DNA of 64,000 nucleotides from an uncultured Methanosarcinales archaeon (GTDB lineage: Archaea; Nanobdellota; Nanobdellia; Woesearchaeales; ARS49). The translations under genes were made by a program, and so were the position numbers. The notes under the pieces are model-generated. The model did no database searches, was not told where the DNA came from, and saw only the letters and a program-made list of their open reading frames with translations. Where the stretch lies: the NCBI GenBank assembly GCA_964362535.1, contig CAYIEN010000005.1:1320-65319 (forward strand). Reading direction: 5' to 3'. This document shows positions 1,383 to 21,405 of this stretch, piece after piece; position 1 is the first letter of the stretch, and every line of letters begins with the position of its first letter.

Positions 1383-1456
1383 TGGACTGGCGGGGATTTG
1401 AACCCCGAGCCTCACCGCTGCCAGCGGCGCGTTATACCGGGTTTAACTACCAGCCC
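1383..1456 (-). tRNA. tRNA-Ala (anticodon GGC)
   Basis: Hand-folded 74-nt cloverleaf. Acceptor GGGCTGG/CCAGTCC with the G3:U70 Ala identity pair. D stem GTTA/TAAC, anticodon stem CGCCG/CGGTG with loop CTGGCAG, T arm CGGGG-TTCAAAT-CCCCG, discriminator A. No encoded CCA. Confidence 0.85.
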
Positions 1457-1471
1457 AACTTGGAGCGTGTA

Positions 1472-1543
1472 TGGACACGCCGGGAATCGAACCCGGAGCC
1501 TCATCGTTGCGAACGATGCGTCATACCGTTAGACCACGTGCCC
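1472..1543 (-). tRNA. tRNA-Ala (anticodon CGC)
   Basis: Hand-folded 72-nt cloverleaf. Acceptor GGGCACG/CGTGTCC with G3:U70. Anticodon stem CATCG/CGATG with loop TTCGCAA, T arm CCGGG-TTCGATT-CCCGG, discriminator A. No encoded CCA. Confidence 0.85.
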
Positions 1544-7906: not shown

Positions 7907-8527
7907 ATGGCAGACGAACCAAAGGATGCGTTTCATCTTGATTTAGAAAAGGCACCTAAGAAAGTGATAAATGCCGCATTGAAGAAGTCGGAGAGGAATG
8001 ATTTTGATGCGCAGGTTGCGTTGGCAAAGAAATCGATTGATCCTTCTGATGTCAAGAACCAGTATGTGTGGACAGGAAGTGTTTCTCGCGTGGTGATTGG
8101 CAAAGGAGGGCAATACGCGTTATCAGTGAGAAACGCAAATCCGCAACCTACTATTTCGTATGCAACATTATTGGAAACGGATGATGCGGTGATAAAACGC
8201 ATTGTTTTTCCGTATGATATTCCGATTCGTGCGGGTGACTGGATTCGTGCATCGTTGATGCCGGTAGAGAAGGTGTACGTGCCGTTCGCGCAGGAAGGAC
8301 ACATAAAACAGGATAAGAATATGCGCGACTCGCTTGCCGGTCTTTCAAAATTTGTGTATGTTCCTCGGAAGCCCGCTGAAGAAGAATTGGCTGTGCTGAT
8401 TGAGCGTATTAATGAAAAAGGCAAAGCGCAGGAAGAATACCATACAGGTGGATTTGAATTACTAGTTACTCCGCGAACGTTTCCCCATCTGTTCAATTCG
8501 CGAGACACAGTGTACAAGAAAGATTAA
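7907..8527 (+). CDS. hypothetical protein
   Basis: 206-aa ORF with ordinary coding composition, no motif recognised. Confidence 0.45.
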   Translation: MADEPKDAFHLDLEKAPKKVINAALKKSERNDFDAQVALAKKSIDPSDVKNQYVWTGSVSRVVIGKGGQYALSVRNANPQPTISYATLLETDDAVIKRIVFPYDIPIRAGDWIRASLMPVEKVYVPFAQEGHIKQDKNMRDSLAGLSKFVYVPRKPAEEELAVLIERINEKGKAQEEYHTGGFELLVTPRTFPHLFNSRDTVYKKD

Positions 8528-8766
8528 GAAATTCCGAGCGCTTTCTTCATTGCGCCCTTATCAAAACCTACAATAATTGTTTTGTCGATTTCGACGACGG
8601 GGACGCCCATTTGGCCTGACTTTTCAATCATGTCTTGCGCTTTTTTCTCATCCGCAGCAACATCTACTTCAGTAAAATGAATGTTGTGTTGTTTGAGAAA
8701 GTCTTTTGCCTGCTTGCAATAGGGGCAGGTGGGTGTGCTGTAAACGATGACTTTGTGTTCACTCAT
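8524..8766 (-). CDS. glutaredoxin-like protein (CPYC)
   Basis: 80 aa. VIVYSTPTCPYCKQAKDFL and GVPVV motifs. Confidence 0.8.
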   Translation of the reverse strand: MSEHKVIVYSTPTCPYCKQAKDFLKQHNIHFTEVDVAADEKKAQDMIEKSGQMGVPVVEIDKTIIVGFDKGAMKKALGIS

Positions 8767-8804
8767 GATATGCCTCTTTTAATCAGTCACTCGCGTTGGA
8801 GTTT

Positions 8805-9797
8805 TTAAACATCTCGTTTTCGAAGTATCCAGATGAACCCGCCAAGAAGGGCAAGACCGAGAATGACGCCGAGCACTTGAGCAGCTGTGGATGTGAAGAA
8901 GGGTGTGTTGGTGAGCGAGTCGTTCATGGCATAGAACGCTGTCATGCTCCACGGGATGAAGCGAGTTACGGTGAGTTCGATGAAGCTTGTTCCTCGCCAC
9001 CACACCATGATGGCGCCGATGGTGATTAAGATGGCTGCGCTGATGAGGTTGAACGTGTGAATCTCGTATTTGCCAATCTTGAGTGTTTTTCCGGTCCAGC
9101 GTGCCCAGTCGAATTTGTCGGACAAAGCTGCGATGATGATGAGGGGTATGCCGACGCCGAGGGCGAAGAATGCGAGCATGATGGCGCCTTGCAGTACGCT
9201 GCCGGTTGTTGCTGCCAAAAGTAAAATGCCTCCGAGTACGGGTCCGATGCAGGGGCTCCAGCCGAATGCAAAAGCAAAGCCGAACAAGACTAATCCCCCA
9301 GGCTTCTTCGTCAGCAACTTAGGATGGAACGTTCCAAATCCTTTGTTGAAGAGCAAGAGGAATCCGAACAGGATGAATATCAAACCTGAAAAGATTGCGA
9401 AGGGTCCGCGATATTGGTTGATGAACGTACCGGCGAATGCGGCAGCAATTCCTAACAAAATAAATCCTATCATCATGCCGAGCGTGAATAGTGAAGTCAT
9501 CATCACGGCTTTTTTTCGTTCTTTGAACAGGATGGTGAAGAAGGTGGGCAACAAAACAAATCCGCAAGGACTGGTAAAGCTTATGATTCCGGCCAAGAGC
9601 GCTGCGAGGAAGGTGATGCTAGCTGCCAATTGATTACGATATTCAATAATCTTCAAAACGCCGAGGGGTAATGTTGAAGAGTTGGTGGCGGTAGCGTGGT
9701 CAAATTCGTCCTGCGGAGTCATGTGTGACACGCCATCATGGGCGAATACAACGGTGGCTAATAGCAAGAATACCAGAATCCACACGCTCGTTTTCAT
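8805..9797 (-). CDS. ccdA: CcdA/DsbD-family thiol:disulfide electron-transfer membrane protein
   Basis: Start set at MKTSVWILVFLLLATVVFA (signal-like). The longer ORF would overlap fba. Paired membrane cysteines FTSPCGFVLLP and WSPCIGPVLG, 6+ TM segments. Confidence 0.8.
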   Translation of the reverse strand: MKTSVWILVFLLLATVVFAHDGVSHMTPQDEFDHATATNSSTLPLGVLKIIEYRNQLAASITFLAALLAGIISFTSPCGFVLLPTFFTILFKERKKAVMMTSLFTLGMMIGFILLGIAAAFAGTFINQYRGPFAIFSGLIFILFGFLLLFNKGFGTFHPKLLTKKPGGLVLFGFAFAFGWSPCIGPVLGGILLLAATTGSVLQGAIMLAFFALGVGIPLIIIAALSDKFDWARWTGKTLKIGKYEIHTFNLISAAILITIGAIMVWWRGTSFIELTVTRFIPWSMTAFYAMNDSLTNTPFFTSTAAQVLGVILGLALLGGFIWILRKRDV

Positions 9798-9846
9798 ACC
9801 GTTACAAGGAGTGTAATGCTTTATAAATGTTACGGACGTAAAAAAT

Positions 9847-10764
9847 TTAAGCTTTCCCTTTGCTTCCAAACAGTTCCATTCTATGCTCGACAACCTGCTG
9901 GAGTAATGCTTTTCCTGCGGTTAAAACACGGCGAGGGTCAATATCATCAGGGTGTTCGTGCAAATACTCGCGCATGCCGGTTACAAACGCAAGTCGCAAA
10001 TCAGTATCAGTATTTATCTTGCAAATGCCGTAATGAATCGCTCGTTGAAGTTGAAGTTCAGGCACTCCTTCTGCAGTTCCTAATTTTGCGCCGAAATCGG
10101 TTGCTTTCTTGATGAGCCAATCAGGAAGCGAAGACGCGCCATGTAAAACAAGTGGTACAGAAACAACTTCTCGAATGACCTGCAAACGTCCGATGTCGAG
10201 TTTGGCTGCGCCGTTGAATTTGTACGCGCCGTGAGATGTGCCGATTGCAATCGCAAGTGAGTCGCATTTTGTTTCTTTTACGAATTGCACGGCAACCGCG
10301 GGATCGGTATAAACAATAGTGCGAGAGGAAACGTTGTCTTCCGCGCCACCGATGGTGCCGAGTTCTGCTTCGACGGAAACGCCCTTTTCTTCTGCCCATG
10401 CAACAACTTTTTGTGTGTTTGCTATATTTTCAGCGAGTGGCAAATGGCTGCCATCATACATAATTGAAGTATAGCCAATATCAATACATTTTTTGATGAG
10501 TTTCAAATCTTTGCCGTGGTCTAAGTGTAAAGCGAAGGGCATGTTTGAATTGCGAGCAGCATTGGCGATTAAGCAATGTAGTTGTTCAAGTCCGGCGTAC
10601 TGTATTGCTCCTTCAGAAGTTTGCAGTATTGCGGGCGCTTTTTGTGCTTCTGCAGCAGAAACAATTGCTTGCAAGATTTCGAGGTTGTTGACGTTAAAGG
10701 CTCCCACGGCGTAATGTCCTTTTTGTGCGAGTGCCAATAGTTTTGCGCCAGTGACGAGTGTCAT
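9847..10764 (-). CDS. fba: class II (metal-dependent) fructose/ketose-bisphosphate aldolase
   Basis: 305 aa. LHLDHG, GTSHGAYKF, LVLHGASS motifs. Confidence 0.85.
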   Translation of the reverse strand: MTLVTGAKLLALAQKGHYAVGAFNVNNLEILQAIVSAAEAQKAPAILQTSEGAIQYAGLEQLHCLIANAARNSNMPFALHLDHGKDLKLIKKCIDIGYTSIMYDGSHLPLAENIANTQKVVAWAEEKGVSVEAELGTIGGAEDNVSSRTIVYTDPAVAVQFVKETKCDSLAIAIGTSHGAYKFNGAAKLDIGRLQVIREVVSVPLVLHGASSLPDWLIKKATDFGAKLGTAEGVPELQLQRAIHYGICKINTDTDLRLAFVTGMREYLHEHPDDIDPRRVLTAGKALLQQVVEHRMELFGSKGKA

Positions 10765-13061: not shown

Positions 13062-13829
13062 TTATTGCCTTACCTGATTTTTACGGATTTTGAGCCAGAG
13101 AACAATACCAACCCCGACCATCGCCACGCTCAACCACTGCCCAATCGTCAAAAAGCCCCACATGACTTCGGGTTCTTTGAAGTATTCGACGACGAAACGG
13201 CAGGCGCCGTACATGATGAAGAATAACGCGAAGAGTGTGCCGTGGGGCAATTTCTTTTTGCTTAAAAAGAGTAATACTGCAAAAATAACTAAGTTGTAGA
13301 ATATTTCATACAATTGCACGGGGTGTCGGGGGACTTCATCTACTGCGGTGTAAATCATTGCCCATGCGCCGTTAAACGCGCGGCCAACTAATTCTTGATT
13401 AAACAAATTACCAAGTCTACCGAATGCTTGAGCCAATGCGCCAGGCACAATCAAAACGTCAGTGAATTGCCAGAATGATAAATGGTGTTTGCGGCTGAAA
13501 TACCAGACGGAAAGGATGCAGCCGATGAATCCGCCGTGGAAACTTAACCCGCCTTTCCAGACGGCAAGAATGTCCAAAGGATTTGCAAAATAGTAGGATG
13601 GCTGGTAAAACAGCACTTCAAAAAGTCGCGCGCCAACAACCATGGAGACGACAATCCAGAAGTATGCGTTGTCGAAGTCTTTCAAAGTCATAGAAAATCG
13701 TCCGTGCTTAATCAGGTGTGTGCCGTAATAGTATGCGGCAAACACGCCAAGTGCATAAAGCAGTCCGTACCAGTAAATCGTAACAAAGCCAAATGAAAAC
13801 AGGACGGGGTTAAGCGTGTTGACGAGCAT
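13062..13829 (-). CDS. lgt: prolipoprotein diacylglyceryl transferase (bacterial-type Lgt)
   Basis: Start at MLVNTLNPVLF. Matches to the E. coli Lgt signature blocks: WKGGLSFHGGFIG, GRLGNLFNQELVGR, RHPVQLYE. Confidence 0.88.
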   Translation of the reverse strand: MLVNTLNPVLFSFGFVTIYWYGLLYALGVFAAYYYGTHLIKHGRFSMTLKDFDNAYFWIVVSMVVGARLFEVLFYQPSYYFANPLDILAVWKGGLSFHGGFIGCILSVWYFSRKHHLSFWQFTDVLIVPGALAQAFGRLGNLFNQELVGRAFNGAWAMIYTAVDEVPRHPVQLYEIFYNLVIFAVLLFLSKKKLPHGTLFALFFIMYGACRFVVEYFKEPEVMWGFLTIGQWLSVAMVGVGIVLWLKIRKNQVRQ

Positions 13830-14616
13830 GTAGTGCCTCCATGACGCGGGCGATGTAAACGCGAATAACGAACAGTCCGGGGAAGACGAGGAGTATTCCG
13901 AGGATGCTTCCCGCAATGCTGTTTTGGACGAACGTCCACATGATAAGTGCGTTCACGACCAAAACCGTTCCGACAAGGAGTGCGGCTGCAGGAATGAGCG
14001 TGTCAAGTTTTCGCGTGCCTAGAACAAAGGCCATTTTGCTGGCGTGTTTCCAGGAGTCTTTGATGATGGCTGTTGCGAGGATGAAAAAGTAAACGATGAT
14101 TGCGATAATGATGATGAATATGGTGTGTGGAACAGTCGAAGCGGCTTGTTCAGTGACTTGTTGTACGAGTATTGCGCGCAAATCAATGACGGTAACAACC
14201 AAATTCAGAATGCTGATAGGTACAAACCATGCGGCACAAAGTTTTGCGAACTGCCCGAGAGGAGTGCCTGCGGCGAGTTTCCACGCAAAGCCTTGAAAGA
14301 CGGAGTAGAGGGCGTAGACGATGAGTAACAGAATGACAATCCAGAACAGAATCATGAGCGTAAATGGTAAAGCTGTTTTGTCGAAGAACAACTGCATCAG
14401 GCTGGGAGTTGTATAAGTGGCAGCGGCTGCAGACAAAAGCGTACTAAATGTTTGCGTTAAGTTTCCAGCGGCGATGAAGAGTTGTTCGCGGGGAAACTGC
14501 GTAATAAAACCGTACAAGAAAAGAAAGGCAATGTCAACGACGCAAGATAATAAGACGTGCAGTGGGCGTGTCCAGAGCGCGGTGAGTGCGTGTTTTGCGG
14601 CTGTTAACGCAATCAT
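13810..14616 (-). CDS. hypothetical polytopic membrane protein
   Basis: 268 aa, 6+ hydrophobic segments. Overlaps neighbouring genes at both ends, operon-like. Confidence 0.5.
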   Translation of the reverse strand: MIALTAAKHALTALWTRPLHVLLSCVVDIAFLFLYGFITQFPREQLFIAAGNLTQTFSTLLSAAAATYTTPSLMQLFFDKTALPFTLMILFWIVILLLIVYALYSVFQGFAWKLAAGTPLGQFAKLCAAWFVPISILNLVVTVIDLRAILVQQVTEQAASTVPHTIFIIIIAIIVYFFILATAIIKDSWKHASKMAFVLGTRKLDTLIPAAALLVGTVLVVNALIMWTFVQNSIAGSILGILLVFPGLFVIRVYIARVMEALHARQHA

Positions 14617-15122
14617 GTCTTTCCGCCGACAATCAGGGTGCCGTCGTTAGTGCTGGAGGTGTCGTCGTATTTGAATTCGCCTTTGATGGTACCATAAAAC
14701 TCAACAAGAACGGTTTCGTCGGGCGCGATTGTTTTTGCAATGTCATATTCTTTGACGTTGAACGTGTGGCTTTTGGTGTCGTCGTTCGAAATTGTCAATT
14801 TGACACGGTCTCCGTGGCCTACGGTGAGAATTTTCGGATCAAATCCAGATGCGGTGATGGTGATGGGGATTTGCAATGTTTTTCCAGAGCGATAGTTTTC
14901 CGCGTCCTGCTGCGGAATGTTGCTTAATCCGGAAGAAGGCGACGCGCCGAGCTGGTCTTGGACCGGCGCGACAGGGATGTCTGAGACTTTTTCTTGTTCC
15001 TGTGAGGAGTAGGTAGAGTCTGTTGATTGTGTTGTATCTTTTGTTTCGATTGTTGAAGGTGCGGTTGTGCATGCTGCGAGCAAGAGTGCTAAGCAGAGTA
15101 AAAGAGAGATTGTTTGTTTCAT
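14613..15122 (-). CDS. lipobox lipoprotein with cupredoxin-like domain (no Cys ligand)
   Basis: MKQTISLLLCLALLLAAC (lipobox LAAC), S/T/Q-rich linker, then ITITASGFDPKILTVGHGDRVKLTISNDDTKSHTFNV cupredoxin-like pattern. Confidence 0.55.
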   Translation of the reverse strand: MKQTISLLLCLALLLAACTTAPSTIETKDTTQSTDSTYSSQEQEKVSDIPVAPVQDQLGASPSSGLSNIPQQDAENYRSGKTLQIPITITASGFDPKILTVGHGDRVKLTISNDDTKSHTFNVKEYDIAKTIAPDETVLVEFYGTIKGEFKYDDTSSTNDGTLIVGGKT

Positions 15123-15499
15123 TGTGTTGCCTCCGTGACTTCTATTGCGCCGAGCATGTCTCGGTGTCCTGTTCCGCAGGGTACGCTGCAGCGGTATTCG
15201 AATATGCCTGCTTTGTCCGCGACAAAGGTCATGTCTGTTGTTTTGCCTGCTGGAATGATGGCTGATGCGCGAAATGCGGGTATAGAAATGCCGTGTTCAA
15301 CGTCAGAGCTGGTTAAATGAATCTTGACCGTATCTCCTTTGTTGACCGTGATGAGTGCGGGTTCGAATGCGTATTGTTTCACTACCATGTCAAATTCTTT
15401 GGTTTCACCGGTTGTCGAGACGGGCTGCGATGCTGAAGTGCAACCCACTAGTAATAAGCACAGGATGAAAAGAAACACTGCATTCATACCGCCCCTCAT
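15119..15499 (-). CDS. lipobox lipoprotein, CuA-type (COX2-like) cupredoxin
   Basis: Lipobox LLVGC. DVEHGISIP then exactly 34 residues to CSVPCGTGHRDM, i.e. the H-x34-C-x3-C-x3-H-x2-M CuA ligand pattern. Alternative start at 15487. Confidence 0.7.
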   Translation of the reverse strand: MRGGMNAVFLFILCLLLVGCTSASQPVSTTGETKEFDMVVKQYAFEPALITVNKGDTVKIHLTSSDVEHGISIPAFRASAIIPAGKTTDMTFVADKAGIFEYRCSVPCGTGHRDMLGAIEVTEATQ

Positions 15500-15542
15500 A
15501 CATTGGTTGTAACGGTTTGGGTTTAAAAGCGTTGTGGAGTGT

Positions 15543-15917
15543 CTATATTGCTATTTCAACGTTCAACTTGTCAAAAGCAACGATTGGTTTTACTTTTGTG
15601 CGTTCGTCTTTGCTTGTTTCTAATGTGATGATTCCGAGGCTTGCGAGTATGGTTATGTCGGTGTTGACGCTTTTGAGGTCGCGATGCACGAGATGAGCGA
15701 GTTCGTAAATAGAATCAGGTTCTTTTTCTTTGATGACGCGCAGTAATGCGATTCTTTTTTCGGTGAGTATTTTTCGTAGTGTTGCCATCGTTGCAAAAGA
15801 AAGCTCGTAATGAGGGGTTATCTTTTTGCCGTTCTTGAGATCCATGTATGCTTGCGCAAATTCATTAAGCACTGTTTTTGTTTCTTTTACAGTTATCTTG
15901 ATATTTTTTGTTCTCAT
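15543..15917 (-). CDS. HTH DNA-binding protein, putative antitoxin (TumA / HVO_A0114-like)
   Basis: 124 aa. Central wHTH-like segment (IYELAHLVHRDLKSVNTDITILASLGII). 4-nt overlap with the upstream TumE-like gene. Confidence 0.5.
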   Translation of the reverse strand: MRTKNIKITVKETKTVLNEFAQAYMDLKNGKKITPHYELSFATMATLRKILTEKRIALLRVIKEKEPDSIYELAHLVHRDLKSVNTDITILASLGIITLETSKDERTKVKPIVAFDKLNVEIAI

Positions 15918-16210
15918 AGCTCACCTTTTCTGAGTTTTTCAACGTCGTCCATAAAATCGCTGATGACTGCCCACATATCTTTATAGGGATAAGGCATTAT
16001 TTTATTTCGTAGATGCTTATGGTGGTTGCTTTTGCCGGTTCCGTGATGCTCGTTATCATATCCAATGATTCTCTTTCCTTCCGAAACATAAACGAGGGAA
16101 TATACTTCACCTTCAGGATACGCTGGCGTAATGGGCACTGCCCAAATGTTCATTTCAATAATATCCCCGTTTGGTTCCACCTGTTTCAAATAAAACAGTT
16201 CTTCGCTCAC
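15914..16210 (-). CDS. TumE-like (DUF6516) putative toxin
   Basis: 98 aa. IIGYDNEHHGTGKSNHHKH block matches my recollection of the DUF6516/TumE family. Confidence 0.5.
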   Translation of the reverse strand: MSEELFYLKQVEPNGDIIEMNIWAVPITPAYPEGEVYSLVYVSEGKRIIGYDNEHHGTGKSNHHKHLRNKIMPYPYKDMWAVISDFMDDVEKLRKGEL

Positions 16211-16290
16211 TAACTAAGGTACGGGATACCCCATATATAAATGTTTGTAGCGATGGCAACTATTAAAAAGTCTGACGGAGGTGTTGCGGT

Positions 16291-16962
16291 ATGCGCATCG
16301 ATCTTCCCGTTCCGTTGGTTTTGCAGGAGAAAGATTCGGTGGAGTGCGGTCTTGCGGGACTATCGATGCTTTATGGATTCTATGGAAAAAGCAAAACAAT
16401 TGCTGAACTGAAGGAACACATCAAAATCCATGCTGTTGGAACGTATGCGCCGCAACTCGGGACATTTCTGAGAAAAGACGGATTTCACGTAGAAATCATC
16501 ACGCACCATCCATCGCTTTTCGTAAAAAAAGAACAACAACTCTCACAAGAAGAACTCAAAGAAAAATTCAAATTGTCGTTAGAAAAACAACAAACAGAAA
16601 ATGTCAAAAACGTACTGCAATACTTTCATGAATTTCTCGAAAACAAAGGAAAATTGACAGTTAAGATTCCGACGCCTGATGACGTTATTTTTCAGTTAAA
16701 GCAAGGCCATCCGGTCGGTGCCCTAGTGACGAGTAATTTTGTTCATGGTTCCAAAGCGGTTTTTAATTACCATTTTCTTCTTATCCGAGGCGTTACCGAA
16801 ACGGGATTCATTGTGAATGATCCTATTCCTGACGAACGTGGCGGCGTGAAGGAATACACGTTTGACGAGTTCAGATATGCGCTGTATGCAAGTGCTGCAG
16901 GAGACTTAGACAACGCATCACTATTCATTGCCTATCCTGACGTGCATACTCGACCAGCATAA
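16291..16962 (+). CDS. peptidase C39-like papain-fold cysteine peptidase (stand-alone)
   Basis: 223 aa. QEKDSVECGLAGLSMLYGFYG (oxyanion Gln + catalytic Cys) and HFLLIRGVTETGFIVNDP (His/Asp). GGAGGTG SD upstream. Confidence 0.6.
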   Translation: MRIDLPVPLVLQEKDSVECGLAGLSMLYGFYGKSKTIAELKEHIKIHAVGTYAPQLGTFLRKDGFHVEIITHHPSLFVKKEQQLSQEELKEKFKLSLEKQQTENVKNVLQYFHEFLENKGKLTVKIPTPDDVIFQLKQGHPVGALVTSNFVHGSKAVFNYHFLLIRGVTETGFIVNDPIPDERGGVKEYTFDEFRYALYASAAGDLDNASLFIAYPDVHTRPA

Positions 16963-16994
16963 ACTATTTAAACAAGAAACGCTCTCGAAAAAGC

Positions 16995-17159
16995 GTGACA
17001 AAGAACAAGTTTTGGTGCACATCGTGCAAGTACAAATTCGAGCGTAACCTGAAGCCTAACTTGTGTCCGTATTGCGGCAAGGGTGCTGTTGAAGCCAACT
17101 TGTCCCGCGGAGCAGAAGATTTGCTCAGAGAAGTTTCTCAGATTGGGAATGACGAATAA
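16995..17159 (+). CDS. small zinc-ribbon protein (54 aa, GTG start, absent from track)
   Basis: Own translation VTKNKFWCTSCKYKFERNLKPNLCPYCGKGAVEANLSRGAEDLLREVSQIGNDE, with CxxC...CxxC. TATTTAAA box ends 23 nt upstream of the GTG. Confidence 0.5.
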   Translation: MTKNKFWCTSCKYKFERNLKPNLCPYCGKGAVEANLSRGAEDLLREVSQIGNDE

Positions 17160-17162
17160 ACG

Positions 17163-17223
17163 TCTCATTTTTATTTAGTATTCTTTCTTCTAGAAAACAA
17201 AAAGAAATAATAAAAAAGAAGAA
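17163..17223. terminator. T-/A-rich bidirectional terminator region
   Basis: catttttatttagtattctttcttc ... aaaaagaaataataaaaaagaagaa between convergent genes. Confidence 0.3.
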
Positions 17224-18315
17224 TTACTGCGTAGGTTGTGTAACCAATTGTCCGTTGGTCAAGTTCTTTGCTGTTGTGCCGGGCAATAATTCAGTGTGTC
17301 TGAACACGTAAATATTGTTCTCAGCGGTTCCGACTTGGGACCAGACTTGTTGCAACGAAGGATAGAGTTGCGGGTCTCCCGTCATGACGATGGTGGGGAT
17401 CATTTCTATCTTGTTTGTCGCAATCAATTCTTTTGCTTCCGCACTTGAAACGTCAAGTGTTTTTTCGGTGTAGGGTTTGATGCCGAAGCCGAGCAGGATT
17501 TGTTTGTGCATGCTGACGTCGTAACAGGTGGTGCAGGTCGCGTCAACGAGGTTGATGAGGTTGACGTGTCCTCTGACCATTTTTGTTGCCAAATCGTAGT
17601 AGGGTGGCGCGATGGTTCGTAGAACAAACAATCCATCGGGGGCGATGTCTCCTGCTTGCTCCCAGGTTTGCGTGATGAGTTCGTATTCGGCAGCATCTGG
17701 TGATAACACAACGGCAGGAAGCTTCGTTAATGAATATGCCGCTATCATGCGCTTGCCGTCTTCGCTGGATGCCGTGTATTTTGTTTCCGAAGCGACAAAC
17801 ACTCCTGCGCTCTCGAGTTGTGCGCCAAGAACGGTAATGTTTCCACAGTCAGTACAGGTTCCTGCGTCTGCAAGAACATAGGTAATGGCAACTTTGCCTT
17901 TGACCGTGCTGCTTTGTACATCATAATAGGGTGCGGGTGAGTCAATCAACAAGACGCTTCCTGATTTGCGCGTGCCTTCAAGGGCAAGTGCGGAAGTATC
18001 TCCTTCGATGACAATGGCGGGCAATCGAGTGATGTTGTTCTCGGTTGCGAGTCGTTGCGCGTGCGCGTCAGTAATAGCGAGTTCTTGGGAGTTCTCCACT
18101 TTGTAGGTAGTACCCTTCAACAATTCAGCATAAACGGATTGCATATCAAAACAATCAGTACAATCTGCCGTGATCAAAGTAACTTCAATTTTGGGCAGTT
18201 TCGGTTCTGAAGCAGAACCAATGCCGGCGATTTGGTATGCGTTGAAGAGCATGACGACACCAATAAGACAAGCTAATACGATGTGGATTGGTCCGAATGT
18301 TTTTGTGTGTTCCAT
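17224..18315 (-). CDS. membrane-anchored protein with three tandem thioredoxin-like CxxC modules
   Basis: N-terminal TM. Three ~110-aa repeats, each with CTDC/CTDC/CTTC followed ~50 aa later by (L/I)P(A/T)(I/V)V and then PPYYD. Confidence 0.55.
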   Translation of the reverse strand: MEHTKTFGPIHIVLACLIGVVMLFNAYQIAGIGSASEPKLPKIEVTLITADCTDCFDMQSVYAELLKGTTYKVENSQELAITDAHAQRLATENNITRLPAIVIEGDTSALALEGTRKSGSVLLIDSPAPYYDVQSSTVKGKVAITYVLADAGTCTDCGNITVLGAQLESAGVFVASETKYTASSEDGKRMIAAYSLTKLPAVVLSPDAAEYELITQTWEQAGDIAPDGLFVLRTIAPPYYDLATKMVRGHVNLINLVDATCTTCYDVSMHKQILLGFGIKPYTEKTLDVSSAEAKELIATNKIEMIPTIVMTGDPQLYPSLQQVWSQVGTAENNIYVFRHTELLPGTTAKNLTNGQLVTQPTQ

Positions 18316-18324
18316 GTGTATACC

Positions 18325-18753
18325 TCAGAGTGGGCAGCCCGTTAGTGCAGACAATCGTTCAAGGGACTGGACGTTTTCGTACATTTGTCCGTTTATCTGC
18401 CACGTGGGTGTTTTTTTGATGTTGGGACCGTTGGTGTGGTCCTCGTACGTGATGAATTTGAAGCTTTTGCCGAACATGCCTGCTTGGTCTTGGGTGTAGC
18501 TGCACCATTCGATTGCGCCATACATGACTGCGTCTTTCTCTGATAAGCATTTTGCGAAAGAGTCGAGTCTGCCAGGCATCGCGAATGCGATTCCTGCAAT
18601 GAGCAAAACCAGCGTGAGCACGATGCCGCTTGTCCAATAGATTTTTTTGCGTCGAGACGCATGAGCTGAGTTTTTTGCCTGTAATGCCGCGTCGCGTTCT
18701 GCGTTGCGCTGGACTTGTTTCAGGCGTAGCTCTTCATGTCGGGAAGTATCCAT
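18325..18753 (-). CDS. membrane-anchored thioredoxin-like protein with degenerate active site
   Basis: TM at 40-58. FAKCLSEKDAVMYGAIEWCSYTQDQAGMFG...TPTWQINGQ...LTGC resembles the VKOR-associated Trx-like domain, but WCPHC is replaced by WCSYT. Confidence 0.5.
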   Translation of the reverse strand: MDTSRHEELRLKQVQRNAERDAALQAKNSAHASRRKKIYWTSGIVLTLVLLIAGIAFAMPGRLDSFAKCLSEKDAVMYGAIEWCSYTQDQAGMFGKSFKFITYEDHTNGPNIKKTPTWQINGQMYENVQSLERLSALTGCPL

Positions 18754-18798
18754 TTATCCTCAGTTCTTTTTTCGTAAATAAAGTGAAATAAAACAAAT

Positions 18799-18987
18799 CT
18801 ATAGTGCTACGGATTCGTCTGTTGTTTCCGCGCAGGGGTCTTCAGTAGTTACTGAAGCGCCGACTCCGCATCCGCCGCCGACCGGTCCTGAGGCAGGTGT
18901 GTATGTTGCTTGACCAGTGGTGCATCCGCTGACGAAGACGAGCCCGATGATTGCGAGCACGAAGATTACTGTTCCGAGTTTGTTCAT
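18799..18987 (-). CDS. small lipobox lipoprotein (62 aa)
   Basis: Start at MNKLGTVIFVLAIIGLVFVSGC (lipobox VSGC). Mature part has GGGCG and DPC cysteines. Confidence 0.45.
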   Translation of the reverse strand: MNKLGTVIFVLAIIGLVFVSGCTTGQATYTPASGPVGGGCGVGASVTTEDPCAETTDESVAL

Positions 18988-18997
18988 GTTAGATACC

Positions 18998-19195
18998 TCA
19001 ACATCCGCCAACCATTGTTGGGAGATTCTGTAGTCCGGAGGGCACGTTGGAGCCACCGGATGTTCCTGTCGAGCTGACTTTGAAGGTTCCGCCCGCTATT
19101 TTTTGCTTGATGTCGTTGATTTGGAATGCTTGCGCGACGCTGATGACGAGCAATACTGCCAGAACAACTGCGATGATGATGTTTGTTTTTTTCAT
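18998..19195 (-). CDS. small signal-anchored protein ending LPTMVGGC
   Basis: 65 aa, one N-terminal TM. C-terminus is shared with the next gene. Confidence 0.5.
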   Translation of the reverse strand: MKKTNIIIAVVLAVLLVISVAQAFQINDIKQKIAGGTFKVSSTGTSGGSNVPSGLQNLPTMVGGC

Positions 19196-19286
19196 TGTTG
19201 TGTACCTCGCTAAAATGAACTTAGCAGCCCCCTACATATGCCGACGTGCTGTCGGCAAAGTTGTAGGTTGCGCAAATAAAAACCAT

Positions 19287-20114
19287 TTAGCAACCTCCAA
19301 CCATATTGGGCAAGTCTGCGCCGATGTCTGTTGATCCGGCATTGATTTTTTTGAGTAGTTGTACGTCGTTGAGCGCTGCGGGGGTTAACTCCATGTTGTT
19401 GTTGACAAGTGCAACGCCTTTTTCAACCATGTTTTTCGGGAAAAAGATGGATTTCCATCGCGTGACTTCCCAATAGATTTGTTCATCGGTCCAGTCGCCA
19501 GAATGCTGGGTGACTAAATACTTTGTGAGTCCGCGGATGGCAAGTGCGTGTGAGCATCCGCAAAGGTCGCGTCCGTTTGCGTCAGCGACGGCAGGTGCTG
19601 AGCAGCAGTATTCGCAGGAGATTTTGCTGACGGTGGAAACGTATCTTGTTTTTTGTTCGGGAGTTAGAGCGGAAGTGGCGATGGCACGGTCGAGTCGTGC
19701 GAGAACGGTGAGGCTGGGAACGGGGTCGTCGAACGAGACGCCAAGTTCTGTGCCGTATTGTTCGGGTGTGCCTGTGGGGATCATTGCTTTGATGACTTCG
19801 TTGACGACGTCGTCGTTTGCGTCGAGTTTGATGCTGCCGCTGGTTTTGTCCGCGGTCGGTCCGGCAAATCCTGTTCCGCCAGTGCCTCCCGATCCCAACT
19901 GCATGAGTTGGATGCCGTTAAAGACAACAACAAGAGCGATAACTGCAATAAGCAAATAGCTTAAACGTTCGATATTGGAAGAAGGTTCGTGATGTGTTGC
20001 GTGGTGTTTCGGTGAAGCGCTGGGCGTGGTTGCCTTTGCGTGTTCGTGAGCGTGTTCAGAGTGCGCGTGCGGCGCGTTTGGGTCTTCGTCTGGCTGAAAT
20101 ACTTTGATTGGCAT
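19287..20114 (-). CDS. membrane protein with His-rich N-tail and Cys-cluster ectodomain, ending LPNMVGGC
   Basis: Start at MPIKVFQPDE behind AAGGGGG. HAHSEHAHEH...HHATHH, one TM, CEYCC...CGCSHA. The longer track ORF runs through the promoter region. Confidence 0.55.
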   Translation of the reverse strand: MPIKVFQPDEDPNAPHAHSEHAHEHAKATTPSASPKHHATHHEPSSNIERLSYLLIAVIALVVVFNGIQLMQLGSGGTGGTGFAGPTADKTSGSIKLDANDDVVNEVIKAMIPTGTPEQYGTELGVSFDDPVPSLTVLARLDRAIATSALTPEQKTRYVSTVSKISCEYCCSAPAVADANGRDLCGCSHALAIRGLTKYLVTQHSGDWTDEQIYWEVTRWKSIFFPKNMVEKGVALVNNNMELTPAALNDVQLLKKINAGSTDIGADLPNMVGGC

Positions 20115-20225
20115 GTGTTTCCCCCTTTGGAATTTGTGTTCGTTGTTCGTATATAAAGATTGTGATGGAGCAGTTTTCTGTTGATTTTGTCCGTTTCTTG
20201 TATGAACTTCTTTTTTTACGCTAAC

Positions 20226-20243
20226 CGTTACAATGTTCGTAAC
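20226..20243. promoter_or_regulatory. putative operator copy 1 (inverted repeat GTTAC-N7-GTAAC)
   Basis: cgttacaatgttcgtaac in the divergent intergenic region. Confidence 0.4.
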
Positions 20244-20270
20244 ATAACGCATATTTAAATGTTGTGAATG

Positions 20271-20287
20271 CGTTACAACGTTCGTAA
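20271..20287. promoter_or_regulatory. putative operator copy 2, abutting the blaI-like TATA box
   Basis: cgttacaacgttcgtaa, 16/17 identical to copy 1. TATTTAAG at 20290-20297 lies 23 nt before the ATG at 20320. Confidence 0.4.
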
Positions 20288-20319
20288 AGTATTTAAGTAA
20301 CGTCAGTATTAGGAAAGAC

Positions 20320-20676
20320 ATGAAAGAATTAGTAACAAAATTTGACGACATTCTCAGTCCGTTAGAGTCTGATGTGCTCGCAATCATTTGGCCAAACAAA
20401 CAAATGAAGGTGCGAGAGATTTACGAGCAACTCAAGAAAAAAAGAAAAGTCGCGTTGAGTTCAGTTGCCGTGATTCTTGACCGTTTGCATGACAAAAAGA
20501 TCGTGATGCGCACGGAAGAAGTCGCGCGTGGCGGAACAAGATATACTTACTCGCCTGCGGAAGACAAGAAGACGTTTGAAAAGAACGTTGTTGAAGAAGC
20601 AGTTAACAATCTCATAGAGTCTTTTGGTCCGGTTGCAGTGAATTATTTCAACGACCGATTCAGTAAAAAGAAGTGA
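20320..20676 (+). CDS. BlaI/MecI/CopY-family winged-helix repressor
   Basis: 118 aa. LSPLESDVLAIIW...REIYEQL...LSSVAVILDRLHDKKIV pattern. No C-terminal CxC metal motif. Confidence 0.8.
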   Translation: MKELVTKFDDILSPLESDVLAIIWPNKQMKVREIYEQLKKKRKVALSSVAVILDRLHDKKIVMRTEEVARGGTRYTYSPAEDKKTFEKNVVEEAVNNLIESFGPVAVNYFNDRFSKKK

Positions 20677-20679
20677 ACA

Positions 20680-21405
20680 ATGAACCTTGCTGACTTGATT
20701 GTGATTTTTGCGCAGAGTCCGACCTATGTAATGCTCACAATATTGACGTTGTTGAGCGCGTTTATCGTGTTGGTGTTTGCGCGCAGAAAAACACTTCCTG
20801 TCACGACACGAGTGTTTTTGATTTACGTGCATCTCGCGTTGTTGGTTGTTCCTGTTGCGTTGTTCGCGTACTCCAGCGGTTGCGCCATGCCAATGGTTGA
20901 TTGTACTTGGAAAACGACGCTTTATGCAGCGCCGTTCATTTTGCTCGGCCTGATCGCGACGGCAGGCATCATCGGATACTTTGTGCTTCCCCGAATGTAC
21001 AGCAAGAACGCGGTAAAGTCAGAAGATAACTCCTTGTTAAGATTCATCAAGCATCATTCGACAAAACACAATCTCAAAACGCCTGAATTATTCCTTGTTG
21101 ATTCGCGCGTGCCGATGGCGTTTAGCTTTTCGGCGTTCAAGCCGTCAATGTATCTATCTATAGGATTGATGGATTTGCTCGAGCGCAAGGAACTTGAGGC
21201 AGTTATTTTGCACGAGATTGGTCATTTGCATCACAAGAGCGCATTACTAAAGTTCTCATCGCATTTTGTGCGTTGGTTTAGTCCGATTGCGCATTTTGGC
21301 AAGAACACGATTGTGGATGAGGAAGAACATATTGCAGATGTGTTCGCGATCGACGCGCAAGGCACGGATAAGTATTTGACCGCAGCATATGAGAAAGTGA
21401 GATAA
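20680..21405 (+). CDS. BlaR1-like M56/M48 membrane zinc metalloprotease (no sensor domain)
   Basis: 241 aa, 3-4 N-terminal TMs, HEIGH zinc motif (ILHEIGHLHH). Starts 4 nt after the repressor stop. Confidence 0.7.
   Translation: MNLADLIVIFAQSPTYVMLTILTLLSAFIVLVFARRKTLPVTTRVFLIYVHLALLVVPVALFAYSSGCAMPMVDCTWKTTLYAAPFILLGLIATAGIIGYFVLPRMYSKNAVKSEDNSLLRFIKHHSTKHNLKTPELFLVDSRVPMAFSFSAFKPSMYLSIGLMDLLERKELEAVILHEIGHLHHKSALLKFSSHFVRWFSPIAHFGKNTIVDEEEHIADVFAIDAQGTDKYLTAAYEKVR

What the first reader, a model, noticed from the sequence alone, without database searches (positions are those of the whole stretch)
17224..21405. BlaI/BlaR1-like pair divergent from a five-gene extracytoplasmic Cys/His-rich operon, with duplicated inverted-repeat operators
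Seen, plus strand:
- A BlaI/MecI/CopY-type winged-helix repressor (20320-20676).
- It is followed 4 nt later by a 241-aa membrane HEIGH metalloprotease with no sensor domain.

Seen, minus strand, five genes starting at 20114:
- A His-rich/Cys-cluster membrane protein.
- A 65-aa anchored peptide.
- A 62-aa lipoprotein.
- A degenerate thioredoxin-like protein.
- A triple-CxxC protein.

Seen, 205-bp intergenic region:
- It holds two copies of cgttacaa(t/c)gttcgtaa (20226-20243, 20271-20287), each containing GTTAC-N7-GTAAC.
- Copy 2 ends 2 nt before the TATA box (20290-20297) of the repressor gene.

Established: BlaI-family repressors bind dyad operators in divergent promoters and are inactivated by cleavage through the cognate M56 protease. 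CopY is the copper-sensing member of the family.

Inference: a proteolytic signal-transduction switch controls an envelope thiol or metal-stress operon in an archaeon. The missing sensor domain and missing CopY Cys motif mean the signal is unknown.
Basis: partly seen in the sequence, partly recalled or inferred. Interest (0 to 1): 0.7.

Follow-up and report, generated by a model that had tools for sequence, protein, structure and literature searches.

The report
Archaeal BlaI–M56 switch for envelope thiol/copper genes
A tiny groundwater archaeon (DPANN) carries a repressor-plus-membrane-protease pair of the kind that controls penicillin resistance in staphylococci, and across about 30 related species the repressor's DNA site sits in the promoters of exported cysteine-rich proteins, a thiol-reducing pathway and a copper protein.

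Summary
20320-20676 is a Penicillinase_R (BlaI-family) repressor. 20680-21405 is a 241-aa M56/M48 protease with no sensor domain. The five minus-strand genes and both repeat copies are where stated.

- The pair lies next to the same operon in 26 of 32 evaluable DPANN species loci.
- The repeat is a dyad, TTAC-N7-GTAA (consensus TTTACA-N5-TGTAAA). It occurs 56 times in 491 kb against about 4 expected. 49 of these lie in the promoters of the repressor gene or of the first operon gene.
- Two more sites exist in the window. One exact site lies between the TATA box and the ATG of a ccdA-glutaredoxin operon (9802-9816). A one-mismatch site lies at a CuA-type cupredoxin operon (15498-15512).
- The protease has two invariant cysteines in its outward TM2-TM3 loop, the loop proposed as the copper sensor in cyanobacterial PetP.

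Best reading: a PetR/PetP-like proteolytic switch that senses a thiol-reactive envelope signal (copper or disulfide stress). Binding, cleavage and the signal itself are inferred, not shown.

The controlled proteins A and B are an undescribed DPANN family that always ends in MVGGC.

The parts
20320..20676 (+). R: BlaI/MecI/CopY-family winged-helix repressor, 118 aa, no cysteine. Its C-terminal motif AxxYFN(E/D)RF is invariant in the family.
   Evidence: Pfam PF03965, 61.5 bits against cutoff 22.6. The family profile hits Mtb Rv1846c (2g9w, E 2.7e-6) and S. aureus BlaI (1sd4). Alignment of 29 orthologs.
20680..21405 (+). P: sensor-less M56/M48 membrane zinc protease, 241 aa. Three TM helices followed by a cytoplasmic HEIGH domain (H178, E179, H182, E216). 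Invariant C68 and C75 lie in the TM2-TM3 loop.
   Evidence: Pfam PF05569, 42.3 bits against cutoff 31, plus PF01435. Invariant columns. AlphaFold2 pLDDT 86. Foldseek matches ZMPSTE24, BlaR1 (8exq, TMq 0.52) and HtpX.
20271..20288 (.). Operator 2 (GTTACAACGTTCGTAAA). It lies 1 nt upstream of the repressor gene's TATA box. Its right half, CGTAAAG, coincides with a BRE-like sequence.
   Evidence: The same position is kept in all 29 loci that carry the repressor.
20290..20297 (+). TATA box of the R-P operon (TATTTAAG). It is 22 nt from the ATG, which implies a leaderless mRNA.
   Evidence: Conserved as TATTTATA or TATTTAAG in all loci.
20226..20243 (.). Operator 1 (GTTACAATGTTCGTAAC). It lies 8-10 nt downstream, in the minus direction, of the distal promoter of the A operon.
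   Evidence: In compact loci such as L020, L024 and L026 the same site fills the gap between this TATA box and the ATG of gene A.
20252..20267 (-). Distal BRE/TATA of the A operon. Read on the minus strand it is CACAACA-TTTAAATA.
   Evidence: repeat D2. It is the only promoter of gene A in the compact loci.
20150..20165 (-). Proximal BRE/TATA of the A operon. Read on the minus strand it is CACAATC-TTTATATA, 37 nt from ATG 20114, with a GGGGG Shine-Dalgarno-like run. It carries no operator.
   Evidence: Conserved in the window's clade: L003, L004, L006, L007, L009, L010, L011, L040.
19287..20114 (-). A: membrane-anchored exported protein. His-rich N-terminus. Invariant C167, C170, C171, C185, C187 and H189, and a C-terminal MVGGC.
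   Evidence: 687 homologs, all from DPANN where a source names them, none with a Pfam domain. Alignments A1 and A2. AlphaFold2 pLDDT 88.5 with no PDB fold match.
18998..19195 (-). B: 65-aa signal-anchored peptide ending LPTMVGGC.
   Evidence: All 36 complete homologs end in MVGGC.
18799..18987 (-). C: 62-aa lipoprotein with lipobox VSGC and a GGGCGVGA...EDPC motif.
   Evidence: Present in a subset of loci.
18325..18753 (-). D: anchored VKOR-type thioredoxin-like domain with a monothiol CxxT motif.
   Evidence: PDB 3kp8, E 1.2e-9. The CxxT motif is kept in L004.
17224..18315 (-). E: anchored protein with three thioredoxin-like CxxC repeats.
   Evidence: Present in every locus that extends beyond gene B.
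17193..17223 (-). T-rich run after the stop codon of E. Likely the archaeal terminator at the end of the operon.
   Evidence: read directly from the sequence.
9802..9816 (.). Operator 3 (TTACAAGGAGTGTAA). It lies between TATA TTTATAAA (9821-9828) and the ATG at 9797 of ccdA.
   Evidence: PWM score 17.7, third best in the window.
8524..9797 (-). ccdA-like thiol-disulfide transporter (9797..8805) and glutaredoxin (8766..8524).
   Evidence: Pfam DsbD_TM, 49.3 bits against cutoff 27.1. Glutaredoxin, 73.9 bits against cutoff 22.9. ccdA lies in or beside the cluster in about 21 other loci.
15498..15512 (.). Probable operator 4 (ATAC-N7-GTAA, one mismatch). It overlaps the ATG of the cupredoxin gene by 2 nt. 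It lies 9 nt downstream of TATA 15522-15529 when counted from this core, or 7 nt when counted from the extended site with its two flanking bases (15496-15514).
   Evidence: PWM score 9.4. The site and its geometry are conserved in L003, L007 and L040 but absent in L004, L009 and L011.
13062..15499 (-). Cupredoxin operon: Cup1 with a CuA-type site C-x3-C-x3-H-x2-M (15499..15119), Cup2 (15122..14613), a 268-aa membrane protein (14616..13810) and an Lgt homolog (13829..13062).
   Evidence: Pfam Cupredoxin_1 and COX2; LGT at 247.7 bits. In other loci Cup1 directly follows E or P.

Best explanation
This is an archaeal version of the BlaI/BlaR1 proteolytic switch. Its closest worked-out relative is the sensor-less, copper-responsive PetR/PetP pair of cyanobacteria.

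**Proposed mechanism**
1. The cysteine-free repressor R binds as a dimer to the 17-bp dyad TTTACA-N5-TGTAAA.
2. At target promoters (gene A's distal promoter, ccdA-grx, and probably the cupredoxin operon) the dyad lies between the TATA box and the leaderless start codon. Bound R would block recruitment of RNA polymerase.
3. At its own promoter the dyad abuts the TATA box and covers the BRE. Bound R would compete with TFB, giving autoregulation.
4. The co-transcribed membrane protease P has its HExxH domain in the cytoplasm.
5. P's N-terminus and TM2-TM3 loop face outward. The loop carries two invariant cysteines. Most family members have a further N-terminal CxxC.
6. A thiol-reactive envelope signal alters this loop. 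The signal could be Cu(I) or another soft metal, or oxidation of the cysteine pair when reducing power runs short. This activates P, which cleaves R.
7. The regulon is then induced. It comprises a CcdA-to-thioredoxin-like reductant relay (CcdA, E, D, glutaredoxin), the exported Cys-cluster proteins A and B with their MVGGC tails, and a CuA-type cupredoxin with its lipoprotein machinery.

**Shown here**
- Family membership of R and P.
- Conserved gene linkage.
- Conserved operator sequence and its position relative to TATA boxes.
- Invariant residues in R, P, A and B.

**Inferred**
- Binding of R to the dyad.
- Cleavage of R by P.
- Membrane topology of P.
- The identity of the signal.
- The biochemical role of A and B.
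For: **Families**
- Pfam hits above threshold for both R and P.
- The R family profile hits Mtb BlaI and S. aureus BlaI.
- The P model matches the BlaR1 TM-plus-protease domain at TMq 0.52.

**Linkage**
- The R and P genes are 3 nt apart or overlap.
- They neighbour gene A in 26 of 32 evaluable species loci.
- In L013 and L016, R-P-Cup1-CcdA form one co-directional overlapping string.

**Dyad**
- 56 observed against 3.7 expected; 49 lie in 1.8% of the sequence.
- It sits beside the TATA box of R in all 29 loci that carry R.
- It precedes gene A even where R and P are distant or absent.
- The window has only three strong PWM sites. The third is in the ccdA promoter.
- A fourth, weaker site at Cup1 is conserved in 4 of 7 clade members.
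- The half-sites TACA/TGTA match known BlaI and CopY operators.

**Sensor and signal**
- C68 and C75 are invariant in 48 P sequences.
- The equivalent loop is the proposed copper sensor of PetP, which also lacks a sensor domain and controls a cupredoxin.
- R has no cysteine in 26 of 29 orthologs, so it is not a CopY-type direct metal sensor.

**Regulon content**
- DsbD_TM, glutaredoxin, cupredoxin/COX2 and LGT.
- VKOR-type thioredoxin domain.
- Three CxxC repeats in E.
Against: - There is no experimental datum of any kind.
- Sequence similarity of R and P to solved BlaI and BlaR1 structures is weak. Single-sequence E-values are 5e-4 and 0.06.
- For P, the best Foldseek E-values go to Ste24-type M48 proteases, not to BlaR1.
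- P scores below every NCBIfam BlaR1 and HtpX cutoff.
- P lacks the fourth TM helix of BlaR1 and PetP.
- Operator spacing (TACA-N5-TGTA) differs from BlaI/CopY (N2) and from PetR (GAC-N5-GTC).
- In this window's clade the five-gene operon has a second, operator-free promoter closer to the gene. Repression here may therefore be partial.
- The Cup1 site has a mismatch and is missing in 3 of 7 close relatives.
- Spacing between the two loop cysteines varies (x3 to x6). This fits a flexible loop but does not identify a ligand.
Confidence: 0.68

Rival explanations
1. A specifically copper-responsive PetR/PetP equivalent. Cu(I) binds the Cys (and Met) loop of P and R is degraded. The regulon exists to make and mature a CuA-type cupredoxin: CcdA and E keep its cysteines reduced, much as TlpA and Sco do in bacteria, and A and B deliver copper through the Met...Cys tail. 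This is a narrower version of the best explanation rather than a contradiction of it.
For: - Cup1 carries C-x3-C-x3-H-x2-M and hits COX2.
- Cup1 directly follows E or P in many loci.
- Cup1 has a conserved near-consensus operator in the window.
- PetRP controls plastocyanin in response to copper and is thought to sense it through the same loop.
- The window's loop reads C-A-M-P-M-V-D-C.
- Extra dyad sites in L029 and L031 flank a Met/His-rich MVGGC peptide and a protein with a GDGMCDxCGMP motif.
- His-rich N-termini occur on A and E in this clade.
- CuA-type 'nosZ-like' cupredoxins are widespread in DPANN (PMC10936187).
Against: - A cupredoxin is found in only 14 of 33 fetched loci, while CcdA (about 22) and E (all) are more constant.
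- The Met residues of the loop are not conserved; only the cysteines are.
- No copper exporter or CopZ was seen in the loci.
- The Cup1 operator is absent in L004, L009 and L011.
Confidence: 0.3
2. R is an ordinary autonomous repressor, or responds to some cytoplasmic ligand. P is merely a co-transcribed HtpX-like membrane quality-control protease that does not cleave R.
For: - P scores higher against HtpX NCBIfam models (49 bits) than against BlaR1 models (18.8 bits), though below every cutoff.
- Foldseek ranks Ste24-type M48 proteases first.
- The nearest relatives outside the clade are annotated HtpX.
Against: - Pfam M56 is above its gathering score.
- The R-P order, with overlapping or near-touching genes, is kept in all 28 loci that carry both genes.
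- P forms a discrete clade more than 75 bits away from HtpX-like proteins.
- That clade has its own invariant extracytoplasmic cysteines.
- R has no cysteine and no recognisable ligand domain.
- The same gene pairing is the hallmark of BlaI/BlaR1, MecI/MecR1 and PetR/PetP.
Confidence: 0.12
3. The dyads are not operators of R. They are sites for another factor, or part of a lineage-specific core-promoter element.
For: - The right half-site of operator 2 overlaps a BRE-like sequence.
- No binding data exist.
Against: - The dyad occurs on either side of TATA boxes: upstream at R, downstream at A, ccdA and Cup1. It is therefore not a fixed core-promoter part.
- It is restricted to this regulon. 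Only 3 strong sites occur in 64 kb that hold dozens of promoters.
- It accompanies the R gene in every locus.
- Its half-sites are the TACA/TGTA typical of the family.
Confidence: 0.05

Closest known systems
PetR/PetP of Synechocystis sp. PCC 6803 (Slr0240/Slr0241)
   Same: - A BlaI/CopY-family regulator without CopY's metal-binding cysteines.
- An adjacent, co-transcribed M48/M56 membrane protease that lacks the beta-lactam sensor domain.
- The short TM2-TM3 loop is the candidate sensor.
- The operator is an inverted repeat.
- The regulon includes a cupredoxin.
   Different: - Archaeal host with BRE/TATA promoters and leaderless mRNAs.
- The loop has invariant cysteines, not methionines.
- P has no fourth TM helix.
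- The operator is TTAC-N7-GTAA, not GAC-N5-GTC.
- The regulon is dominated by a CcdA/thioredoxin-like reductant relay and by unknown Cys-cluster proteins.
BlaI/BlaR1 and MecI/MecR1 of Staphylococcus aureus and Bacillus licheniformis
   Same: - Pfam families PF03965 and PF05569.
- HExxH...E..AD protease domain on the cytoplasmic side.
- Divergent promoter carrying two dyad operators with TACA/TGTA half-sites.
- Autoregulated repressor-protease operon.
   Different: - No penicillin-binding sensor domain.
- NCBIfam BlaR1 and BlaI models score far below their cutoffs.
- Half-site spacing is N5, not N2.
- Archaea have no peptidoglycan target, so the signal cannot be a beta-lactam.
Mycobacterium tuberculosis BlaI/BlaR (Rv1846c/Rv1845c)
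   Same: - It is the best solved-structure match for the R family profile (2g9w, E 2.7e-6).
- From my own knowledge, not checked here: its partner protease also lacks the extracellular sensor domain.
   Different: - Bacterial.
- From my own knowledge, not checked here: it regulates blaC and ATP synthase genes.
- No extracytoplasmic Cys pair has been reported for it to my knowledge. This was not checked here.
CopY/CopR copper repressors of Firmicutes
   Same: - The same winged-helix family.
- TACA/TGTA 'cop box', often in two copies.
- A metal-related regulon.
   Different: - R lacks the C-terminal CxCx4CxC motif.
- R scores 36 bits against the 122-bit cutoff of TIGR02698.
- CopY senses metal directly and has no partner protease.

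Membership tests
BlaI/MecI/CopY repressors (Pfam PF03965 Penicillinase_R) | Profile match above the curated threshold | tested here: met
   61.5 bits against cutoff 22.6, covering residues 12-112.
BlaI/MecI/CopY repressors (Pfam PF03965 Penicillinase_R) | Binds inverted repeats with TACA/TGTA half-sites in its own promoter | tested here: inconclusive
   A conserved dyad, TTTACA-N5-TGTAAA, abuts the TATA box of the R gene in all 29 loci that carry R. The half-sites match and the spacing differs. Binding itself was not tested.
BlaI/MecI/CopY repressors (Pfam PF03965 Penicillinase_R) | Inactivated by site-specific cleavage in the C-terminal dimerisation region | not testable with these tools
   An invariant AxxYFN(E/D)RF motif lies in the equivalent region. 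No cleavage data exist.
CopY/TcrY subfamily (TIGR02698) | C-terminal CxCx4CxC metal-binding site, and the equivalog score | tested here: not met
   26 of 29 orthologs have no cysteine. The score is 36 bits against a cutoff of 121.95.
BlaR1/MecR1 signal transducers | M56 zinc-protease domain with HExxH and a downstream Glu | tested here: met
   PF05569 at 42.3 bits against cutoff 31. H178, E179, H182 and E216 are invariant. These residues align with the BlaR1 motifs. Foldseek to 8exq gives TMq 0.52.
BlaR1/MecR1 signal transducers | C-terminal extracellular penicillin-binding (transpeptidase-like) sensor domain following a fourth TM helix | tested here: not met
   The protein ends at residue 241, just after the protease domain. 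There was no transpeptidase hit. NF000326 scores 18.8 bits against a cutoff of 400.
PetR/PetP-type sensor-less switches | BlaI-family gene immediately followed by a sensor-less M48/M56 protease gene | tested here: met
   The genes are 3 nt apart here and overlap in orthologs. Both Pfam families named for PetP are hit.
PetR/PetP-type sensor-less switches | Two conserved Met residues in the TM2-TM3 loop, and a GAC-N5-GTC operator | tested here: not met
   The loop has invariant Cys68 and Cys75. Met is not conserved. The operator is TTAC-N7-GTAA.
PetR/PetP-type sensor-less switches | Copper- and protease-dependent degradation of the regulator | not testable with these tools
   This needs biochemistry.
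HtpX (M48B) quality-control proteases | NCBIfam equivalog score | tested here: not met
   The best HtpX model scores 49 bits against a cutoff of 275. The P clade is separated from HtpX-like hits by more than 75 bits.
CcdA/DsbD thiol-disulfide transporters (gene 9797..8805) | DsbD_TM profile above threshold | tested here: met
   PF02683 at 49.3 bits against cutoff 27.1.
CuA-type cupredoxins (gene 15499..15119) | Cupredoxin fold with ligand motif H...C-x3-C-x3-H-x2-M | tested here: met
   Cupredoxin_1 at 42.5 bits and COX2 at 30 bits, both above cutoff. The motif CSVPCGTGHRDM is read directly from the translation. Metal content was not tested.

The most novel reading that the evidence does not exclude
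A, B, E and CcdA form a previously undescribed DPANN-specific extracytoplasmic thiol system.

- Proteins with a new fold and a Cys5-His cluster, together with small anchored peptides, all carry an invariant C-terminal MVGGC 'swinging arm'.
- This arm would be kept reduced by a CcdA-to-triple-thioredoxin relay.
- It would be used to hand copper, another soft metal, or sulfur to surface proteins such as the enigmatic CuA 'nosZ-like' cupredoxins.
- The system would be governed by the first archaeal regulated-proteolysis switch of the BlaI/M56 type.
- That switch would read the redox or metal state of the cell surface through the protease's own cysteine pair.
Probability: 0.3. Interest if true: 0.8.

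Novelty: new variant of a known kind. Interest (0 to 1): 0.62.

Why it matters
- Regulated proteolysis of a BlaI-type repressor has been worked out in Firmicutes, mycobacteria and cyanobacteria. I found no description of it in Archaea.
- Here it comes with a sharply defined operator and regulon conserved across Woesearchaeota, Aenigmatarchaeota and Nanoarchaeota-labelled genomes.
- For organisms that cannot be cultured, this gives a rare directly testable regulatory circuit. Everything needed (R, P, a 17-bp site) can be reconstituted in E. coli or in vitro.
- It also ties together several unexplained DPANN features:
  - the widespread CuA-type cupredoxins that have no respiratory chain,
  - a bacterial-type Lgt next to lipobox proteins,
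  - a large family of exported Cys-cluster proteins with an invariant MVGGC C-terminus and no known fold.
- If the protease's Cys loop is the sensor, it generalises the PetP idea. The TM2-TM3 loop, which contacts the sensor domain in BlaR1, would then be the ancestral signal input of M56 proteases.

Tried and rejected
- **CopY-like direct metal sensing by R.** Rejected. R has no cysteine in 26 of 29 orthologs and the TIGR02698 score is far below its cutoff.
- **Beta-lactam sensing.** Rejected. There is no sensor domain.
- **Known domain or fold for protein A.** Nothing was found:
  - Pfam and NCBIfam gave no hit.
  - The exhaustive HMM search found 306 cluster representatives but no informative fusions.
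  - A confident AlphaFold2 model had no PDB match; the best Foldseek E-value was 5.4.
- **Literature.** Searches for an archaeal BlaI/BlaR1, for DPANN cupredoxin/CcdA clusters and for 'MVGGC' gave nothing relevant. The exception was the DPANN nosZ-like CuA paper.
- **Rfam.** Only two tRNAs in the window and nothing near the locus.
- **Double-glycine processing of the MVGG|C tail by the C39-like peptidase at 16291-16962.** Considered. It is present in only 3 loci and has no signal peptide, so it was not pursued.
- **Pfam scan of extra genes at dyad sites in other loci.** It gave only DUF3179, PadR and a sub-threshold TRASH hit.
- **Metagenome-contig scan.** Not used, because the genome loci were sufficient.

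Full report
**Source and setting**

The window matches contigs from Hainich groundwater metagenomes (well H43, 0.1 µm fraction). NCBI names the protease 'M56 family metallopeptidase [Nanoarchaeota archaeon]'. It is therefore a DPANN archaeon. Promoters here are BRE/TATA type. What follows about archaeal promoter geometry rests on established knowledge: the TATA box is centred near -26 and the BRE consensus cRnaAnt lies immediately upstream of it.

**Observation check**

- ORF listing and sequence reading confirm all genes and both repeat copies at the stated coordinates.
- Pfam places 20320-20676 in Penicillinase_R (61.5 bits, cutoff 22.6). It places 20680-21405 in Peptidase_M56 (42.3 bits, cutoff 31) and Peptidase_M48. 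No sensor domain is hit.
- NCBIfam equivalogs for CopY, BlaI, BlaR1 and HtpX all score far below their cutoffs. The two proteins are family members, but not orthologs of any named protein.
- Gene D is a VKOR-type thioredoxin domain with CxxT in place of CxxC.
- Gene E is three homologous CxxC repeats.
- A T-rich run follows the stop codon of E. Spacers within the five-gene string are 9-91 nt, which is consistent with one operon.
- One correction: copy 2 of the repeat reads GTTAC-N7-GTAAA, not GTAAC.

**Conservation of the gene arrangement**

- Three orthologous contigs found through the protease show the same divergent layout (L003, L004, L006; 44-68% identity). There the five genes are followed by DUF302, two cupredoxins, a membrane protein and Lgt.
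- Protein A proved to be the most widespread marker. It has 687 homologs, all from DPANN where a source names them, and none has a Pfam domain.
- A scan of GTDB species genomes with its alignment returned 34 loci. I annotated these with phmmer, using the window's proteins as queries.
- The R-P pair lies upstream of A on the opposite strand in 26 of 32 evaluable loci.
- A, B and E are always present. C and D are variable.
- A CcdA homolog lies within the fetched DNA in about 22 loci, and a Cup1-type cupredoxin in 14.
- In L012, L027, L028, L034 and L038 the order is A-B-(D)-E-Cup1-CcdA.
- In L013 and L016 the string R-P-Cup1-CcdA is co-directional with overlapping genes.
- Some records are labelled 'Methanosarcinales' or 'Binatia'. 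Their gene content is that of the DPANN loci, so I treat these labels as binning or naming artefacts.

**The operator**

- Aligning the R-A spacers of all loci gives a clear phylogenetic footprint.
- The element TTAC-N7-GTAA has the PWM consensus C-TTTACA-N5-TGTAAA-G.
- It sits 1-2 nt upstream of TATTTATA or TATTTAAG of the R gene in every locus that has R. It is exact in about 20 loci. In one Woesearchaeota subclade (9 loci) it is a TTAC-N7-GAAA variant.
- A second copy lies on the A side.
- In compact loci such as L020, L024 and L026, the layout read on A's strand is TTTAAATA, 8 nt, dyad, 4 nt, ATG. There the dyad fills the space between the TATA box and a leaderless start.
- The dyad precedes A even where R-P is 0.8-2.6 kb away (L013, L016, L027, L037, L038). 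It also precedes A where R-P is not in the fetched DNA (L012, L018, L023, L028, L034).
- Counts: 56 exact dyads in 490,812 bp against 3.7 expected from Markov simulations. 49 of them lie in the 1.8% of sequence just upstream of R or A (P about 1e-77).
- The half-sites are the TACA/TGTA known for BlaI, MecI and CopY, whose spacing is N2 (PMC7253601). PetR uses GAC-N5-GTC.

**More of the regulon in the window**

- The exact dyad occurs three times in 64 kb (0.46 expected).
- The third copy, at 9802-9816, lies between TTTATAAA (9821-9828) and the ATG at 9797 of a DsbD_TM/CcdA gene. A glutaredoxin gene follows.
- The PWM scan shows a large score gap after these three sites: 21.1, 19.6 and 17.7, then 11.8.
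- It then picks up a one-mismatch site overlapping the ATG of Cup1 (15498-15512), 7 nt downstream of a TATA box when counted from the extended 19-nt site. A BRE-like CACAAC lies like that of gene A's promoters.
- This site and its geometry recur in L003, L007 and L040, but not in L004, L009 or L011.
- The R, ccdA and Cup1 promoters have 22-23 nt between TATA box and ATG, which implies leaderless mRNAs.
- Other loci have extra dyads:
  - In L029 a dyad lies between a Met/His-rich peptide ending MVGGC and a gene for a protein with a GDGMCDxCGMP motif. L031 has a dyad before the homologous gene.
  - In L012 a dyad precedes a DUF3179 lipoprotein gene.

**A complication in this clade**

- In the window and its eight closest relatives, A has gained a His-rich N-terminus.
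- The spacer has gained a second BRE/TATA at 20150-20165. This is repeat D2, a copy of the distal BRE/TATA at 20252-20267. It lies 37 nt from ATG 20114 and has a Shine-Dalgarno-like run.
- Operator 1 covers the start region of the distal promoter but lies about 66 nt upstream of the proximal TATA box.
- The five-gene operon here may therefore have a basal, unrepressed promoter plus an inducible one. I could not resolve this without transcript data.

**The protease as sensor**

- P orthologs form a discrete clade of about 47 sequences above 145 bits. The next hits, HtpX-like, score 67 bits or less.
- Invariant residues are H178, E179, H182, E216, A219 and D220. C68 and C75 are also invariant.
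- By the positive-inside rule, RRK follows TM1 and R/K residues follow TM3. The N-terminus and the TM2-TM3 loop therefore face outward and the protease domain faces the cytoplasm, as in BlaR1.
- Most members outside this clade also begin MCxEC.
- The AlphaFold2 model is confident (pLDDT 86). It matches the BlaR1 TM-plus-protease structures (TMq 0.52), Ste24 and HtpX.
- In PetP the same 14-residue loop carries two conserved Met residues proposed as copper ligands. In BlaR1 that loop contacts the sensor domain.
- R has no cysteine in 26 of 29 orthologs. It keeps an invariant AxxYFN(E/D)RF near its C-terminus. From my recollection of the BlaI sequence, this region corresponds to the one that holds the N101-F102 cleavage site. 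That correspondence is an inference.

**What the regulon does**

- Shown by homology:
  - a CcdA transporter,
  - a glutaredoxin,
  - an anchored triple-CxxC thioredoxin-like protein,
  - a monothiol VKOR-type thioredoxin domain,
  - a cupredoxin with a CuA ligand set,
  - an Lgt homolog beside three lipobox proteins.
- CuA-type 'nosZ-like' cupredoxins without a respiratory chain have been reported as common in DPANN (PMC10936187).
- Unknown: protein A has five invariant cysteines plus one histidine. Its helical fold is confidently predicted (pLDDT 88.5) and has no PDB match.
- Unknown: peptide B.
- All 37 complete A homologs and all 36 complete B homologs end in MVGGC. I found no literature on this motif.
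- My inference is a reductant relay, CcdA to E and D, that keeps exported cysteines reduced. This would include those of A, B and the CuA site. A and B would handle a soft metal, most likely copper.
- Bacterial CuA assembly likewise needs a CcdA/TlpA-type reducing branch and thiol-based copper chaperones. This is established knowledge and was not tested here.

**Verdict**

- It is best filed as a new, archaeal, Cys-loop variant of the sensor-less BlaI/M56 (PetRP-like) switch.
- Its regulon is well defined by comparative genomics, and its output proteins are largely novel.
- Binding of R, cleavage of R and the identity of the signal remain to be shown.

Noticed in passing
window 19287-19301 and 18998-19012; L029 959-1225: Every complete homolog of A (37 of 37) and of B (36 of 36) ends in the pentapeptide MVGGC, usually preceded by LPx. 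An unrelated Met/His-rich peptide next to a dyad in L029 ends the same way. This is an invariant C-terminal signature on exported proteins with no description in the searchable literature.
   Followed up: partly
window 13062-13829 (-): A bacterial-type prolipoprotein diacylglyceryl transferase (Pfam LGT, 247.7 bits) in a DPANN archaeon. It is co-oriented with three lipobox-bearing proteins: Cup1 (LLVGC), Cup2 (LLAAC) and C (VSGC). The arrangement is conserved in L003, L004, L009, L011 and L040.
   Followed up: no
window 15119-15499 (-): Cup1 carries a complete CuA-type ligand motif (H...CSVPCGTGHRDM), yet no oxidase or N2O-reductase catalytic domain was seen in the fetched regions. It probably belongs to the 'nosZ-like' DPANN proteins discussed in PMC10936187.
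   Followed up: partly
window 15543-17159: Genes sit between E and the cupredoxin operon. They are a C39-like peptidase (16291-16962), a 54-aa zinc-ribbon protein (16995-17159) and a small two-gene pair (15543-16210) whose first product looks like a DNA-binding protein. The DUF302 gene that follows E in L003, L004, L006, L007, L009, L010, L011 and L040 is missing here.
   Followed up: no
window 19196-19286 (-): The 91-nt spacer between A and B contains a T-run and nested inverted repeats (CCTACA...CCGAC-AGCAC-GTCGG...TGTAGG). This may be an RNA stem-loop that sets the A:B expression ratio, or a processing site.
   Followed up: no
window 9829-9852: Just beyond the ccdA TATA box lies GTTAC-GGAC-GTAAAA followed by AATTTAAG. 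It resembles operator 2 plus the R-gene TATA box, but with N4 spacing and no downstream gene, because the aldolase gene ends at 9847. It may be a remnant of an R-type promoter.
   Followed up: no
L004 8750-9139; also L015 706-1152, L022 10753-11235 and others: A 129-150-aa polytopic membrane protein with a conserved Cys-x3-Cys in its first TM region recurs beside R-P or the A operon in at least 11 loci. It has no Pfam hit and no homolog in the window.
   Followed up: partly
window 19970-20114; L004 5650-5751: His-rich N-terminal extensions, predicted to be cytoplasmic, occur on A only in the window's clade. In L004 one also occurs on E. Their appearance coincides with the extra proximal promoter.
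   Followed up: partly
L010, L011, L016, L018, L027, L028, L033, L039, L040 (record titles): Contigs with unmistakably DPANN-type gene content are titled 'Candidatus Binatia bacterium' or 'uncultured Methanosarcinales archaeon'. These are likely mis-binned or mis-named MAGs.
   Followed up: no
window 1383-1543 (-): Two adjacent tRNA genes are the only Rfam hits in the window.
   Followed up: no
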